Source: an uncultured Alphaproteobacteria bacterium
GTDB lineage: Bacteria > Pseudomonadota > Alphaproteobacteria > HIMB59 > GCA-002718135
Assembly: GCA_902614085.1 (NCBI GenBank)
Contig: CACMJS010000001.1
Span: forward strand, 299,127 to 363,126
DNA length: 64,000 nucleotides
Reading direction: 5' to 3'
The notes beneath the pieces are model-generated. The model saw nothing but the letters and a program-made list of their open reading frames with translations, was not told the origin of the DNA and ran no database searches. A program made the position numbers and the translations under genes. Below, piece after piece: positions 8,879 through 14,441 of the stretch. How positions within the stretch are numbered: position 1 is the first letter of the stretch; every line of letters starts with the position of its first letter.

Positions 8879-11416
8879 ATGTCTAATAAAGATGAAAATT
8901 TATTAGCTATTCTTGGACCTACTAATACAGGAAAAACCTATACAGCGTTTGAAAAACTTTTCTCATATTCTTCAGGTATTTTTGGTTTTCCACTAAGATT
9001 ACTAGCTAGAGAGAACTATGATAAAGCTGTAAAAAGAATTGGACTTAACAATGTAGCATTAATAACAGGTGAAGAAAAAATTCTTCCAAAAGAAGCAAAA
9101 TATTTTTTTTGTACTGTTGAATCAATGCCTAAAAATATTTCTGCTGATTGTATAATAATTGATGAAGTTCAATTGGCAGCAGATTATGAAAGAGGACATA
9201 TCTTTACTGATAGGATTTTAAATCTAAGGGGCAATTTTATAACTATCTTCTTAGGATCACTAAATATTGAAAATATACTAAAAAAAATTTATCCAAATAT
9301 TATAATAGAGAAAAAAAAAAGATTTTCTCAACTTTCATTTTTGAGGAAACAAAATTTTTCCAAACTCGAACCAAGATCAGCTATAATTGCATTTAATATT
9401 AACAAAGTCTATGAAATTGCTGAAAACATTAGAACACATAAAGGCGGAACTGCTGTTGTTTTAGGTTCACTAAGTCCCAGAACTAGAAATGCCCAAGTAG
9501 AAGTATATGAAAATAAAAATGTAGATTTTCTTGTAGCAACAGATGCTATTGGAATGGGCTTAAATCTTAATATCAATCATGTAAGTTTTTCAGCACTAGA
9601 AAAATTTGATGGGAGATATAATCGTAACCTTGCTCCAAATGAACTAGGTCAAATTGCAGGTAGAGCAGGTAGATACAAACAAGATGGAACTTTTAGTCAT
9701 ACTAAAGAAGCAGGAAATTTGGATCCATTAATTATACAACAGATAGAAGCACACAACTTTGATAATATTCAAAAAATTTATTGGAGAAATAGTGATTTAA
9801 ATTTTAATTCAATAGATTCATTATTATCATCATTAAAAAAATATCCAATTCATAACTATTTTATACATAAAAAGAATGCTTTAGATGAAGTTAACCTTCG
9901 TAATTTAATTAATGATAATGAAATAAAGAAATTTCTTATATCAAAAAAAAATTTAAAGTTATTGTGGGAAGTATGTCAGGTTCCAGATTTTGAAAAACTT
10001 TTTAATGATAATTATTTATTACTTTTAAAAGATATATATCTTATTTTAATAAATAATGAATATAACATACCTGAGGAATGGATTAACAAAAAGGTCGGTA
10101 AACTTAATAATTTTGGTGTAGGTATATCTGAGCTTTCAATTAAAATTTCTCAGATACGTACATGGACATACATATCAAATAATCATAACTGGTTAAAAAA
10201 TACATACTATTGGAAAGAAAAAACTCAGCAGATAGAAAATGAATTATCTGATCAACTACATAACAGTCTTACAAAAAAATTTATAGATTATTCATCAAAA
10301 TTTTTTATAGGACAGGAAAAATTACAAAATATCCAAGATATACTTAAAAAAAATAAAAACGAAATTTTTTTAGATGATAATAAATATGGTGTTATAAAAG
10401 GTTTTGATCTTATTGAGGGTAAAAAAATATTTTCACAATCTCTTTTTTCGATTAGTAATATAAAAAAAACAGTAAGAAATATGATTAATGAAAAAGTAGA
10501 TAGTTTTTTAAGTGCCCCACTTGACTCAATTAGGTTTGGTGACATCACTAATTCTAAAATTAAAGATGAAACTTTTATTTATTGGGGAGATGAAAGTGTT
10601 GGTAAATTAAAGAAAGGTAAATCAATATATAGACCTATAGCTGAGGCTTTGAATTCCGAATATTTATCTTCAGAAAATAAATTATTGATTTCTGCTAAAC
10701 TACAAAAATGGTTAGAAAATGAAATAAACGATTATCTATATCCTTTAAATAAAAATTTAGATGAAGATATTAATTCTGAAATTAGAGCAATTACCTTTAA
10801 CTGTATTGAAAATTTTGGAAATTACCCAGTAGAAAAATTCAAAGGTATTCTCAAAAAAATTAGTCAAGAGAGTAAGTCGCAGCTTACTAAATTAGGCATA
10901 AGGGTAGGGGCAAAATATTTTTTTACACCAAGTCTATTAAAGAAAAAACCTCTAGAAATTTGTGCAATCCTATGGAAAACTTTTTATGGAAAAGACATTG
11001 ACAATTATCTACCACTCCCACAAAATGGTAGAGTATCCTTTACATCTGAAATAAAAATACCTAATCATTATTGGAAATCAATTGGGTATATTAATATTAA
11101 AAATTTTTCATTCAGAATAGATGTTTTTGAAAAAATTTTTTTTCTTGCAAGACAAAAAATTAAAAAAGGTCCTTTTCTAGAATCTTCAGATCTTATGAAT
11201 CCAATTGGATGTAACAGTGAACAGTTAAAAGATATTATGAAATTTTGTGGTTACGATTATGTTACTATTTCTGATGAAAAAAAATTATTTTTCTTAAGTA
11301 ACAAGAAAAAAGAAACAAAAAAAAATGATAGAAAAAATAAAAACAAAAAAAATAATGACAATACTTTAAAGAAAGATCCAAATTCTCCCTTTGCAGTTTT
11401 AGAGAAACTTCTTTAA
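8879..11416 (+). CDS. SUV3/MgpS-like ATP-dependent helicase
   Basis: GPTNTGKT Walker A, DEVQ, ATDAIGMGLN, QIAGRAGR. Confidence 0.9.
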   Translation: MSNKDENLLAILGPTNTGKTYTAFEKLFSYSSGIFGFPLRLLARENYDKAVKRIGLNNVALITGEEKILPKEAKYFFCTVESMPKNISADCIIIDEVQLAADYERGHIFTDRILNLRGNFITIFLGSLNIENILKKIYPNIIIEKKKRFSQLSFLRKQNFSKLEPRSAIIAFNINKVYEIAENIRTHKGGTAVVLGSLSPRTRNAQVEVYENKNVDFLVATDAIGMGLNLNINHVSFSALEKFDGRYNRNLAPNELGQIAGRAGRYKQDGTFSHTKEAGNLDPLIIQQIEAHNFDNIQKIYWRNSDLNFNSIDSLLSSLKKYPIHNYFIHKKNALDEVNLRNLINDNEIKKFLISKKNLKLLWEVCQVPDFEKLFNDNYLLLLKDIYLILINNEYNIPEEWINKKVGKLNNFGVGISELSIKISQIRTWTYISNNHNWLKNTYYWKEKTQQIENELSDQLHNSLTKKFIDYSSKFFIGQEKLQNIQDILKKNKNEIFLDDNKYGVIKGFDLIEGKKIFSQSLFSISNIKKTVRNMINEKVDSFLSAPLDSIRFGDITNSKIKDETFIYWGDESVGKLKKGKSIYRPIAEALNSEYLSSENKLLISAKLQKWLENEINDYLYPLNKNLDEDINSEIRAITFNCIENFGNYPVEKFKGILKKISQESKSQLTKLGIRVGAKYFFTPSLLKKKPLEICAILWKTFYGKDIDNYLPLPQNGRVSFTSEIKIPNHYWKSIGYINIKNFSFRIDVFEKIFFLARQKIKKGPFLESSDLMNPIGCNSEQLKDIMKFCGYDYVTISDEKKLFFLSNKKKETKKNDRKNKNKKNNDNTLKKDPNSPFAVLEKLL

Positions 11417-11438: not shown

Positions 11439-11885
11439 TTGATAAATTTATTAAAAAATGTTTTAAATTATAAAAAATCTAAGGATGATGAAGAGGATAG
11501 TAAAAATCTTGAATTACTTTGCGGATTAATGATTGAAGCTGCATATACTGATGGAACAATAGGGGAAAGCGAGTTAAAAAAAATTAAATTTAGCTTGATT
11601 AATGTTTTTGATGAAAATGAAGAAGAAGTTGGCTTGGTTTTAGATGAGGCAATAAAAAATAAAAATAACTCTAAATCTCTTCACTATTATACATCCTTTA
11701 TTAATAAAAATTTTGACAGTGATAAAAAACTACTTCTTATAGAAGCTTTATGGGAAATTGTGTTATCTGATGGAGAAATTCATGATTTCGAGTCAAATCT
11801 TATTAGAAGGCTTGCTGGATTACTTTATATTTCTGATGTAAACTCTGGAAATGCAAGAAAAAGGGCTCTAAATAAAAATTCATAA
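11439..11885 (+). CDS. TerB family (tellurite-resistance-like) protein
   Basis: AAYTDG...[30 protein letters not shown] pattern; TTG start. Confidence 0.8.
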
Positions 11886-11889
11886 TATT

Positions 11890-12222
11890 ATGACATATGT
11901 AGTCGATGAAAAGTGTATTAAATGTAAACACATGGATTGCGTAGATGTGTGTCCAGTGGATTGTTTTTATGAAGGTGAAAATATGCTCGTAATACATCCT
12001 GATGAGTGTATTGACTGCGGTGTTTGTGAACCAGAATGTCCAGCTGAGGCAATTCTATCAGACACAGAGCACGGAATAGAAAAATGGGCTGAAATTAATA
12101 GAAAATATTCTGAAATTTGGCCTAATATAAATGAAAAAAAAGACCCTCCGCCAGATGCAGAAAAATGGCAAAATGTTAAAGATAAATATAATAAGTATTT
12201 TAGTGAAAAACCAGGGAGATAA
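11890..12222 (+). CDS. fdxA: 7Fe ferredoxin FdxA
   Basis: [43 protein letters not shown]. Confidence 0.96.
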
Positions 12223-12726
12223 ATGAAATCAAAAAAAAATTCAGACTTAAAAATAGGAGAAATCGTAGTTTATCCCAAGCATGGTGTAGGTGAAATTGAA
12301 AAAATAGAAACTATGGAAATATCCAATATTAAAACAAGTTATTATGTTGTCAAAATGGAGCAATCCAAATTAACAATTAGAGTTCCGCTTGATAAAAAAA
12401 ACGAGGTTGGATTAAGAAAAATCTCTTCAAAAAAAATTATAGAAGAAGTTTATTCTACATTAAAGTTAAAACCAAAAATAAGAAGAATAATGTGGAGTAG
12501 AAGAGCACAAGAATATGAAGCAAAAATTTTCTCTGGTGATCCAATTAAAATTTCTGAAGTAGTTAGAGATTTATTTAGAAAAAGTAGTCAAGCAGAACAG
12601 TCCTACAGTGAGAGACAAATGTTCCAGGTGGCAATAGAACGTTTAGCACGAGAAGTAGCCGCAGTTGAAAAAACAGATTATTTTCAATCGACAGAAAAAA
12701 TTGAACAAATACTAATTAAAAAATAA
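12223..12726 (+). CDS. carD: CarD/CdnL family RNA-polymerase-binding regulator
   Basis: VVYPKHGVG, WSRRAQEY, SYSER motifs; follows fdxA. Confidence 0.93.
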   Translation: MKSKKNSDLKIGEIVVYPKHGVGEIEKIETMEISNIKTSYYVVKMEQSKLTIRVPLDKKNEVGLRKISSKKIIEEVYSTLKLKPKIRRIMWSRRAQEYEAKIFSGDPIKISEVVRDLFRKSSQAEQSYSERQMFQVAIERLAREVAAVEKTDYFQSTEKIEQILIKK

Positions 12727-12730
12727 TATT

Positions 12731-13543
12731 TTGGATAAAGCCAGTAATTTTGTAGAATTAAAAGAAACAAGCAAGATATGGGCTATTGGTTCAATTCATT
12801 CAAATTTAAAATCATTTAGTGCAATAAAAAAATATATTTTAAATCATTTTAAAAAATGTGATAAATTAATTTTTCTCGGCAATGTAATTGGATTAGGAGA
12901 TGATTCAAAAGAGACTCTATCTAGTGTTATTGATTTAAGATTTAAAATAATGTCTAAATTTAAACTAAAACCTGAGTCAATTGTATTTTTAAGAGGTGCC
13001 CAAGAAGAGATGTTTAGCAAATTATTGCAACTACAACTTGCACCTAACCCAATAGAAATTCTTGAATGGATGTTTGAGCATGGAGTCAACAAAACAATAG
13101 AATCATATGGTTTTTCAGAGAATGAGATTAAAAGTTTAGCTTCTTCCGGAACTATTAATATATCGAAATGGACATCTTCCTTGAATAAATCCATACAAGA
13201 TAATCCTGGACATAATGAGTATTTTTTAAATTTAAAGCATGCTGCTTACTCTCATACAAAAAAAATATTATTTGTTAATAGGGGCGTTGATATAACTAGA
13301 CCTCTATCAGCTCAAAATGACTGTTTTTGGTGGGGTTTTCAAAATTTTTCAAAAATTCAAAAGCCTTATAATACATTTTTGAGGATTGTTAGAGGATACG
13401 AGTCTGAACATTTAAATCAATCTCAAAATTCAAAAAATAATGTAGTTTGTACTTTATTTAAACAACCTTTATCTAACAAAAATGTTTTATGCGGAATATT
13501 TACTGAAAACGGGGAAATTTTAGATTTATTTGAAAATAATTGA
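12731..13543 (+). CDS. Calcineurin-like (PPP) metallophosphoesterase fold protein with degenerate active site
   Basis: Motif scaffold retained (AIGSIHS, FLGNVIGLG, FLRGAQE, LFVNRGVD, IVRGY) but metal ligands substituted. Confidence 0.75.
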   Translation: MDKASNFVELKETSKIWAIGSIHSNLKSFSAIKKYILNHFKKCDKLIFLGNVIGLGDDSKETLSSVIDLRFKIMSKFKLKPESIVFLRGAQEEMFSKLLQLQLAPNPIEILEWMFEHGVNKTIESYGFSENEIKSLASSGTINISKWTSSLNKSIQDNPGHNEYFLNLKHAAYSHTKKILFVNRGVDITRPLSAQNDCFWWGFQNFSKIQKPYNTFLRIVRGYESEHLNQSQNSKNNVVCTLFKQPLSNKNVLCGIFTENGEILDLFENN

Positions 13544-13574
13544 TCTAATTTAATTACATTACGTATAATTAGTT

Positions 13575-14441
13575 ATGGTATCAAAAAATTTTTTCTTCTC
13601 TAGCAATCTAATAGAACTATCAAAAAAAGCATCAATTCTTGAAAAAGATGAGGAATTTCAACTAATAAATGATTGGAGAGATAACAAAACTCCTCGATCA
13701 CTTCAAAAAATTCTTAACTCATATCTTCGTTTAGCTGTTTCTTACGCAAGAAAATATTCCAGTTATGGCTTGCCAATTGATGATTTAATTCATGAGGGAG
13801 TTCTTGGCATCATGCACTCACTTGAAAAATTTGATACTTCTAAAGATTTTAGACTTTCAACCTACGCTTCATGGTGGATTAGAGCATCAATACAAGATTA
13901 TATTTTAAAAAACTGGTCAGTCGTTCGTACTGGATCCACAGCATCTCAAAAAGCACTCTTTTTTAATCTAAAAAAAATCAAACAACAGATTAATGATGTA
14001 TCAAGGGAATTCATGGGTCAAAATGAAATAAACAAAGTTTCAAATATGCTTAATGTCAAATCTATTGATGTTCAAAATATGGAGTCTAGGCTTACTGGGG
14101 GCGATGTTCATTTAAATCAAAAAGTTGATCATGATACAGAAAATGACTTAATGAGTTTACTTCCTGATGAAAGACAAAATCCTGAGGAAACGTTTGAAGA
14201 ATTTAATGATAAAAATATTAAAAAAGATTTTATTAATAAAGCTATAGATACTTTAAATGAAAGAGAAAAAACCATTATTCGTCTAAGAAAATTCAGAGAA
14301 AAAAGCATAACATTGGATGAATTAGGTCAAAAGTTAAAAATTAGCAAAGAGAGAGTTAGACAAATAGAAACGAAAGCGCTAGATAAACTTAAAAAATCTT
14401 TATTAGAAATTTCAAATCAAAATAAAGAATTTTTTATTTGA
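13575..14441 (+). CDS. rpoH: RNA polymerase sigma-32 family factor (RpoH2-like)
   Basis: FRLSTYASWWIRASIQDYIL, RpoH-box variant QKALFFNL, region 4 SKERVRQIE. Confidence 0.92.
   Translation: MVSKNFFFSSNLIELSKKASILEKDEEFQLINDWRDNKTPRSLQKILNSYLRLAVSYARKYSSYGLPIDDLIHEGVLGIMHSLEKFDTSKDFRLSTYASWWIRASIQDYILKNWSVVRTGSTASQKALFFNLKKIKQQINDVSREFMGQNEINKVSNMLNVKSIDVQNMESRLTGGDVHLNQKVDHDTENDLMSLLPDERQNPEETFEEFNDKNIKKDFINKAIDTLNEREKTIIRLRKFREKSITLDELGQKLKISKERVRQIETKALDKLKKSLLEISNQNKEFFI

What the first reader, a model, noticed from the sequence alone, without database searches (positions are those of the whole stretch)
12731..13543. Pseudo-phosphatase embedded between carD and rpoH2
Seen: PPP/calcineurin-like motifs keep their order but are altered: GDxHG to GSIHS, GDxxDRG to GNVIGLG, GNHE to GAQE, HAG to NRG, GH to GY. 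Only one His ligand remains, yet the 270-aa frame is intact. It sits in a tight run (gaps 0-31 nt) of acnA-helicase-terB-fdxA-carD-X-rpoH2. Established: these residues bind the dimetal centre and perform catalysis. Inference: a catalytically dead scaffold or ligand sensor, possibly linking CarD and the RpoH2 stress sigma factor. I know of no characterised bacterial regulator of this kind.
Basis: partly seen in the sequence, partly recalled or inferred. Interest (0 to 1): 0.62.

Follow-up and report, generated by a model that had tools for sequence, protein, structure and literature searches.

The report
Dead phosphatase-fold gene behind carD
This gene encodes a well-conserved protein with the shape of an ApaH/lambda-type phosphatase but without the metal-binding catalytic residues; it belongs to an unnamed alphaproteobacterial family almost always encoded right after the transcription factor gene carD, so it is probably a non-enzymatic regulatory partner whose function nobody has tested.

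Summary
Window 12731-13543 (+) is an intact 270-aa ORF, 4 nt after carD and 31 nt before an RpoH-type sigma gene. A confident structure model (pLDDT 93.6) matches PPP phosphatases: ApaH-like, PP5, lambda phosphatase and RLPH2. The family profile also finds these by sequence.

The ligand loss is not local decay. Of 176 non-redundant family members, none keeps more than 3 of 8 canonical metal or catalytic residues. All 14 canonical paralogues keep 8 of 8. The replacements themselves are conserved (Asn51, Gly54, Arg88, Gln91, Arg221). dN/dS is 0.07-0.11.

About 99 of 301 sampled genomes of the class carry the family. None was found outside the class. carD lies directly upstream in 66 of 78 evaluable genomes.

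The RpoH link is weaker. rpoH follows X in roughly 30-50% of loci. The same rpoH subtype follows carD directly in 7 of 20 genomes without X.

No Pfam or NCBIfam model or paper covers the family. This scan has flagged it on at least 13 other genomes, and one earlier follow-up reached the same verdict.

Best reading: a non-catalytic phosphatase-fold protein that works with CarD. The mechanism is inferred, not shown.

The parts
12731..13543 (+). X: 270-aa PPP/ApaH-like phosphatase-fold protein with degenerate metal and catalytic motifs (GSIHS, GNVIGLG, RGAQEE, VNRG, RGY)
   Evidence: ORF; no Pfam hit; AF2 model pLDDT 93.6; Foldseek PPP hits; motif census; dN/dS 0.07-0.11
12223..12726 (+). carD/cdnL, RNA-polymerase-binding transcription factor; its stop lies 4 nt before the X start, so the two are probably co-transcribed and translationally coupled
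   Evidence: Pfam CarD_TRCF_RID 4.4e-15 and CarD_C 1.1e-21; directly upstream of X in 66 of 78 class genomes and 62 of 73 named loci
13575..14441 (+). RpoH-type sigma-32, PRK07500 ('rpoH2') subtype; one of two RpoH paralogues in this genome
   Evidence: NCBIfam NF005693 312 bits, NF005143 272 bits; second paralogue at 41% identity elsewhere in the genome
13540..13569 (+). Promoter-like TTGATC-N18-TATAAT overlapping the X stop codon; the -10 element ends 5 nt before the rpoH ATG
   Evidence: Consensus scan; TGATC and CGTATAAT nearly invariant with fixed spacing in 12 species while the spacer varies
11890..12222 (+). fdxA ferredoxin, conserved upstream member of the cluster
   Evidence: Pfam Fer4/DUF3470; upstream of carD in most loci
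11439..11885 (+). TerB-domain protein, frequent upstream member of the cluster
   Evidence: Pfam TerB 7e-23; synteny
8879..11416 (+). Suv3-like DEXQ-box helicase, frequent upstream member of the cluster
   Evidence: Pfam DEXQc_Suv3 1.5e-27 and Helicase_C; synteny

Best explanation
X is a member of an uncharacterised family of catalytically inactive PPP-fold (ApaH/PrpA-like) proteins that was found only in Alphaproteobacteria. Shown: it has the phosphatase fold. The dinuclear metal site cannot form, because the motif I Asp, the second motif II Asp, the motif III Asn and catalytic His, and the motif V His are replaced throughout the family. The gene is under strong purifying selection, and it is encoded immediately downstream of carD in most genomes that have it. 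Inferred: the former active-site cleft has been rebuilt with conserved amide and cationic residues (Asn51, Arg88, Gln91, Glu92, Arg221, plus His23 and His161). It now serves as a binding site for a phosphate-bearing ligand or for a protein segment. Through this site X modulates CarD-dependent transcription initiation, for example CarD's access to RNA polymerase or its stability. The adjacent rpoH is a frequent neighbour of the carD cluster with its own promoter, not an obligate partner of X.
For: Fold: AF2 model pLDDT 93.6, pTM 0.92; Foldseek top hits 2qjc, PP5, lambda phosphatase and RLPH2, probability 1.00. Homology: profile against PDB gives 2qjc 8e-7, 5vjv 3.6e-5 and ApaH 1.2e-3, matching in N-terminal, middle and C-terminal segments. 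Ligand loss is family-wide: 0 of 176 keep the motif I Asp, 175 of 176 have Gly at the His-partner Asp, 162 of 176 have Gln for the catalytic His, and at most 3 of 8 residues are retained, against 8 of 8 in 14 canonical paralogues. HMM scores are bimodal, 300-400 against 65-80 bits. Selection: dN/dS 0.07-0.11, compared with carD 0.04-0.08 and rpoH 0.03-0.06. Conservation peaks in the former active-site loops and adjoining helices, at residues 41-50, 81-100 and 181-200. carD link: directly upstream on the same strand in 66 of 78 class genomes, within 1.5 kb in 3 more, and none of the 20 listed carD-negative genomes has X; 62 of 73 named loci; 4-nt carD-X gap here.
Against: There is no direct evidence of any interaction with CarD, RNA polymerase or a ligand; gene order is the only functional evidence. 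In 9 of 78 genomes X lies away from carD. CarD proteins of X-positive and X-negative lineages show no obvious distinguishing feature. About two thirds of the class manages CarD without X. I could not inspect model coordinates, so the pocket geometry is inferred from motif positions. Residual or alternative catalysis is not excluded.
Confidence: 0.55

Rival explanations
1. X is still an enzyme. It uses a rebuilt, metal-independent or mononuclear active site made from the conserved His23, His161, Arg88, Arg221, Glu92 and Asn51. It acts on a phosphoester or pyrophosphate substrate such as a dinucleoside polyphosphate or an RNA 5' end.
For: The former active-site region is the most conserved part of the protein. 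The conserved set includes two His, two Arg and an invariant Glu. The motif IV His is kept in 84 of 176 members. The nearest active relatives are ApaH-like enzymes.
Against: The catalytic His is replaced by Gln in 162 of 176 members and is never His. The His-activating Asp is Gly in 175 of 176. No member keeps more than 3 of 8 canonical residues. To my knowledge no PPP-fold enzyme is known to work without the dimetal centre.
Confidence: 0.12
2. X is a dedicated regulator of the PRK07500-type RpoH sigma factor (rpoH2), for example an anti-sigma-like binder or stabiliser. Its position after carD is incidental.
For: rpoH follows X here and in 12 of 24 and 22 of 73 other loci. Within the window's order, 6 of 6 X-positive genomes have two RpoH paralogues and 5 of 5 X-negative genomes have only one. 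Across the class, a clear PRK07500-type RpoH is present in 57 of 99 X-positive genomes against 55 of 201 X-negative ones (my tally).
Against: About 40% of X-positive genomes lack a clear PRK07500-type RpoH at E<=1e-100. Many X-negative genomes have one, and in 7 of 20 X-negative loci it sits directly after carD. In four other genera of the same family, X is followed by pagL and rpoH2 lies elsewhere. The co-loss in the sister family could be a single deletion of two adjacent genes. rpoH has its own conserved promoter-like element.
Confidence: 0.12
3. X is a structural or housekeeping protein whose function is unrelated to transcription. It is kept beside carD only by operon inertia in a very old, rarely rearranged cluster.
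For: The whole helicase-terB-fdxA-carD cluster is conserved with or without X, so adjacency alone is weak functional evidence. X is located away from carD in 9 of 78 genomes.
Against: X is the only optional member of the cluster, yet when present it almost always occupies the same slot right after carD, across lineages sharing only 30-40% identity. The gap tightens to 4 nt in the streamlined genome.
Confidence: 0.18
4. Lineage-specific decay: X is a recently inactivated phosphatase gene on its way to being lost.
For: None beyond the missing ligands.
Against: The same substitutions occur across the whole family, down to 25-35% identity. dN/dS is 0.07-0.11. The frame is intact with no stops in all 56 order-level and 99 class-level strong matches.
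Confidence: 0.01

Closest known systems
Bacterial-type PPP phosphatases: ApaH, ApaH-like phosphatases (for example T. brucei ALPH1-type, PDB 2qjc), Rhizobiales-like phosphatase 2 (5vjv), lambda phosphatase (1g5b), PrpA/PrpB
   Same: Same fold and the same order and spacing of the five motifs. Detectable sequence homology and top structural matches. A helical insert lies between motifs III and IV, and a conserved His (His161) in that insert is shared with canonical paralogues in 13 of 14 cases.
   Different: All dimetal ligands except the motif I His (82% of members) and sometimes the motif IV His (48%) are replaced. The catalytic His-Asp pair is Gln/Gly. X falls below the Pfam PF00149 and NCBIfam ApaH/PrpA cut-offs. 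It forms a separate clade on a long stem. ALPH1 is an mRNA decapping enzyme (PMC5491325), and no activity is expected here.
Inactive metallophosphoesterase-fold scaffolds: Vps29 of retromer and the B subunits of archaeal/eukaryotic replicative DNA polymerases (from my own knowledge, not tested here)
   Same: Calcineurin-like fold retained while metal ligands are lost; the protein is kept under selection as a non-catalytic binding module.
   Different: No sequence relationship closer than the superfamily. They are eukaryotic or archaeal, in different cellular systems, and belong to different branches of the superfamily (not the PPP/ApaH branch).
CarD/CdnL regulatory inputs: ClpXP degradation through the C-terminal Ala-Ala degron in Caulobacter (PMC11034885, PMC5324124) and Clp/antisense control in mycobacteria (PMC8820732)
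   Same: These are the known ways in which CarD activity is tuned under stress. PMC11034885 notes additional, unexplained layers of CdnL control, which is the kind of role proposed for X.
   Different: None of these involves a phosphatase-fold protein. The CarD of this window's order lacks the Ala-Ala C-terminus.

Membership tests
Calcineurin-like / PPP metallophosphoesterase superfamily (fold level) | Beta-sandwich phosphoesterase fold with structural similarity to solved PPP enzymes | tested here: met
   AF2 pLDDT 93.6; Foldseek probability 1.00, TM 0.5-0.6 to 2qjc, PP5, 1g5b and 5vjv
Calcineurin-like / PPP metallophosphoesterase superfamily (fold level) | Detectable sequence homology to family members | tested here: met
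   Profile against PDB: 2qjc 8.2e-7, 5vjv 3.6e-5, ApaH 1.2e-3; canonical paralogues score 65-80 bits on the X-family HMM
Active PPP/ApaH-type phosphatases (enzyme family) | Dimetal ligand set and catalytic residues: GDxHG, GDxxDRG, GNHE, motif IV His, motif V His | tested here: not met
   Window protein keeps 1 of 8; family maximum 3 of 8; canonical paralogues 8 of 8
Active PPP/ApaH-type phosphatases (enzyme family) | Passing the curated thresholds of Pfam PF00149 or the NCBIfam ApaH/PrpA equivalogs | tested here: not met
   No PF00149 hit; only one of the 61 family members in alignment A1 matches it; NF001204 16.3 bits against a cut-off of 176; the same holds for Rhodospirillales-type members
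Active PPP/ApaH-type phosphatases (enzyme family) | Metal-dependent phosphoesterase activity | not testable with these tools
   Needs purified protein
Pseudoenzymes of the metallophosphoesterase fold | Catalytic residues lost across the family while the protein stays under purifying selection | tested here: met
   Census; dN/dS 0.07-0.11; no stops in any orthologue
Pseudoenzymes of the metallophosphoesterase fold | Demonstrated absence of activity and a defined binding partner | not testable with these tools
   Biochemistry needed
CarD/CdnL-associated factor (proposed) | Conserved operonic linkage with carD | tested here: met
   66 of 78 directly adjacent on the same strand; 62 of 73
CarD/CdnL-associated factor (proposed) | Physical or genetic interaction with CarD or RNA polymerase | not testable with these tools

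The most novel reading that the evidence does not exclude
X is a metal-free reader derived from an ApaH-like enzyme. It binds, without cleaving, a nucleoside polyphosphate such as Ap4A, (p)ppGpp or the Np4N or triphosphate 5' end of nascent RNA. It passes that signal to CarD at the open promoter complex. This would give many Alphaproteobacteria, including abundant marine ones, an alarmone input into transcription initiation that no one has described.
Probability: 0.1. Interest if true: 0.85.

Novelty: new variant of a known kind. Interest (0 to 1): 0.55.

Why it matters
CarD/CdnL is a global regulator of transcription initiation, and how it is controlled in Alphaproteobacteria is only partly understood; PMC11034885 points to unexplained layers. 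A conserved pseudo-phosphatase encoded right after carD in about a third of sampled alphaproteobacterial species is a concrete, testable candidate for such a layer. It would also be, as far as I could find, the first bacterial pseudoenzyme family of the PPP branch. Cultivable hosts such as Magnetospirillum, Nitrospirillum and Dongia carry it, so genetics and biochemistry are feasible. The large, unnamed families in which I found no copy (0/17, 0/12, 0/12 and 0/11) may include the standard model organisms, which could explain why it has escaped study. That last point is an inference, because the sampled families carry no names.

Tried and rejected
1. Single-sequence searches of Pfam, NCBIfam and PDB gave nothing significant. 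Homology appeared only with a family profile.

2. The search for related loci with the diverse alignment A1 failed for lack of a conserved stretch. It worked with the narrower alignment A3.

3. A search for domain fusions in longer family members found none that were informative.

4. I looked for a CarD feature specific to X-positive lineages. Core length and the C-terminal Ala-Ala degron do not separate X-positive from X-negative CarDs.

5. I tested whether X tracks the rpoH2-type sigma. The association is only partial.

6. Four literature searches on pseudophosphatase, CdnL, rpoH and fdxA combinations found nothing on this family. The single CarD mention indexed for PMC3688512 was not in its main text.

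8. Model coordinates are not exposed to scripts, so I could not measure pocket geometry or electrostatics.

9. Lineage-specific decay is rejected.

Full report
**The observation**

The window is AT-rich, about 28% G+C. It carries a same-strand run of acnA, a Suv3-like helicase, a TerB-domain gene, fdxA, carD, the ORF in question (X, 12731-13543), an RpoH-type sigma gene and a PagL-like gene. The gaps are 5, 22, 4, 0, 4, 31 and 31 nt.

X is 270 aa. Its TTG is the first common start codon after an in-frame TAA at 12713-12715, and it lies 4 nt after the carD stop.

**Is it really a phosphatase homologue?**

The single sequence finds nothing significant in Pfam or the PDB. NCBIfam gives only sub-threshold N-terminal matches to ApaH and PrpA/B models.

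A full scan of 1.8 billion cluster representatives found 403 relatives, 88 of them at E<=1e-30. Many are full-length proteins of 260-300 aa at 25-40% identity. A profile of 61 of these matches several bacterial-type PPP phosphatases:

- ApaH-like 2qjc at 8.2e-7, in three collinear segments
- Rhizobiales-like phosphatase 2 at 3.6e-5
- ApaH at 1.2e-3
- lambda phosphatase, weakly

An AlphaFold2 model built on that alignment is confident (pLDDT 93.6, pTM 0.92). Its best structural neighbours are all PPP enzymes at probability 1.00: 2qjc, PP5, lambda phosphatase, PnkP phosphatase, RLPH2 and calcineurin. So the fold and the homology are established.

**Is the ligand loss a local accident?**

No. I aligned 176 non-redundant family members and 14 canonical paralogues from the same class to the family HMM. 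The canonical proteins place their residues exactly in the expected columns, which validates the mapping.

| Position | Canonical paralogues (n=14) | X family (n=176) |
|---|---|---|
| Motif I Asp | D in all | Ala 95, Ser 66, never Asp |
| Motif I His | H in all | kept in 145 |
| Motif II bridging Asp | D in all | Asn 152, Asp 9 |
| Motif II second Asp | D in all | Gly 175 |
| Motif II Arg | R in all | kept in 62 |
| Motif III Asn | N in all | kept in 4 |
| Motif III catalytic His | H in all | Gln 162, never His |
| Motif IV His | H in all | kept in 84 |
| Motif V His | H in all | Tyr or Phe 139, His 9 |

No family member keeps more than 3 of the 8 residues, and every canonical paralogue keeps all 8. 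HMM scores are bimodal, 300-400 bits for the family against 65-80 bits for paralogues, with nothing between. The family forms one clade on a stem of about 1 substitution per site.

The window genome has six ordinary Metallophos genes, and the Pfam model does not detect X.

**Is it a working gene?**

Pairwise dN/dS among close relatives is 0.07-0.11 for X. The neighbours give 0.04-0.08 for carD, 0.03-0.06 for rpoH, 0.05-0.12 for the PagL-like gene and 0.10-0.17 for terB. No orthologue has an internal stop.

Conservation is not spread evenly. It peaks at three stretches:

- residues 41-50
- residues 81-100, which are motif III and the following helix, consensus LRGxQEEMWxKLLQLQ
- residues 181-200, which are motif IV and the FWWG loop

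These are the former active-site loops and the neighbouring cap. The replacements themselves are conserved: Asn51 86%, Gly54 99%, Arg88 96%, Gln91 92%, Glu92 100%, Arg221 95% and His161 97%. Asp-to-Asn and His-to-Gln are near-isosteric amide substitutions. Together with two conserved arginines, this looks like a cleft rebuilt for binding rather than abandoned. This last step is inference. I could not inspect coordinates.

**Distribution**

- In the window's own family, 55 of 60 other sampled genomes have X. In the sister family of the same order, 0 of 60 do.
- Across the class, 99 of 301 sampled high-quality genomes have a strong match (E<=1e-80), plus one partial match at a contig end.
- In a phylum-wide sample, the only strong hits (6 of 301) lie in the same class. 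Several large families of that class have none: 0/17, 0/12, 0/12 and 0/11.
- Named hosts include Magnetospirillum, Nitrospirillum, Dongia, Oceanibaculum, Inquilinus, Kiloniellaceae and Stellaceae, with more than 577 loci.

**Context**

The three class-wide searches drew the same genomes, so coordinates can be compared. Of 78 X-positive genomes where both genes could be placed:

- carD lies directly upstream on the same strand, with a gap under 400 nt, in 66
- carD lies within about 1.5 kb in 3 more
- carD lies elsewhere in 9

None of the 20 listed carD-negative genomes has X. In 80 named loci, carD is directly upstream in 62 of 73 evaluable cases.

The rpoH link is looser:

- rpoH follows X in 12 of 24 unnamed class loci and in 22 of 73 named loci.
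- In four other genera of the window's own family the order is carD-X-pagL, with rpoH2 elsewhere in the genome.
- In 20 X-negative genomes, rpoH follows carD directly in 7.
- All ten cluster-associated rpoH genes tested, with or without X, pass the same NCBIfam equivalog, NF005693/PRK07500.

So fdxA-carD-[X]-rpoH(PRK07500 type) is an old cluster in which X is the optional member.

Some association with this sigma remains. Inside the order, all 6 X-positive genomes checked have two RpoH paralogues and all 5 X-negative ones have a single copy. Class-wide, a clear PRK07500-type RpoH occurs in 57 of 99 X-positive genomes against 55 of 201 X-negative ones (my tally). The within-order pattern could be one deletion of two adjacent genes.

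In the window's genus, a TGATC-N18/19-CGTATAAT element overlaps the X stop and ends 5 nt before the rpoH ATG. It is nearly invariant in 12 species while the spacer varies. rpoH therefore probably has its own promoter, and X belongs transcriptionally with carD.

**What it most likely does**

The shown facts point to a non-catalytic PPP-fold protein retained for a function tied to CarD. The nearest active relatives act on dinucleoside polyphosphates and cap-like 5' ends: ApaH (from my own knowledge) and ALPH1, an mRNA decapping enzyme (PMC5491325). CarD acts at transcription initiation. In Caulobacter it is cleared by ClpXP through a C-terminal Ala-Ala degron during starvation, with further unexplained control (PMC11034885).

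A plausible mechanism is that X uses the rebuilt cleft to bind either a phosphate-bearing small molecule or a segment of CarD or RNA polymerase, and so tunes CarD action. I found no CarD feature that distinguishes X-positive lineages. The Ala-Ala terminus is present in 95 of 97 X-positive CarDs outside this order and in 15 of 20 X-negative ones, and it is absent from both families of this order.

**Novelty**

No Pfam or NCBIfam model covers the family, and four literature searches found nothing. Source annotations are 'hypothetical protein' or, once, 'serine/threonine protein phosphatase 1'. Inactive metallophosphoesterase-fold scaffolds are known in eukaryotes (Vps29 and the DNA polymerase B subunits, from my own knowledge). 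This is therefore a new variant of a known kind, not a new category.

The scan has flagged the same family on at least 13 other genomes, and one earlier follow-up (e1-2341644) reached the same verdict.

- the residue census
- the selection measurements
- class-wide adjacency statistics
- the control showing that carD-rpoH adjacency exists without X
- the partial RpoH2 co-occurrence

**Limits**

No complex prediction was possible, and no model coordinates were available. Genome families in the whole-genome searches are unnamed, so statements about which model organisms lack X are inferences. The adjacency and co-occurrence tallies were made by hand from tool tables.

Noticed in passing
window 13540-13577: A promoter-like TTGATC-N18-TATAAT overlaps the X stop codon and ends 5 nt before the rpoH ATG, with no Shine-Dalgarno sequence between them. 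TGATC and CGTATAAT are nearly invariant in 12 species. This suggests a leaderless or near-leaderless rpoH mRNA.
   Followed up: partly
L136:1495-2217 (-), sister family of the same order: In the X-negative sister family, CarD is about 240 aa. It has a Lys/Ala-rich, histone-H1-like N-terminal extension of about 75 aa in front of the normal CarD core, and the locus ends after carD with no X and no rpoH.
   Followed up: partly
window 12223-12726 and CarD orthologues: The C-terminal Ala-Ala that acts as a ClpXP degron in Caulobacter CdnL is present in 95 of 97 and 15 of 20 other alphaproteobacterial CarDs examined. It is absent from CarD in both families of the window's order, where the proteins end in ..ILIKK or ..ILNKR.
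   Followed up: partly
G109:C22:34276-35082, G001:C19:21923-22732, G025:C1:225219-226037: The matches to the second (rpoH1-type) sigma-32 paralogue contain one in-frame TAA in three genomes from three different genera of the window's family. This may be an alignment running past the true start, or something real.
   Followed up: no
L013:2115-2834 (-) and L014: Some relatives carry a canonical 239-aa PrpA-like phosphatase with all motifs intact (GDIHG, GDYIDRG, GNHE, HAG, HGH), about 30% identical to X. It is a convenient within-lineage control for assays.
   Followed up: partly
L044, L053, L064, L097, L099: Contigs carrying the alphaproteobacterial fdxA-carD-X synteny at 56-62% identity are filed under MAGs labelled Acidimicrobiia, Chromatiaceae, Acidoferrum, Anaerolineae and Mycobacteriaceae. 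These are probably binning errors.
   Followed up: no
G298:C25 and G147:C2: In one family (f29), about 1.4 kb separates carD from X, so an extra gene seems to have been inserted between them. I did not identify it.
   Followed up: no
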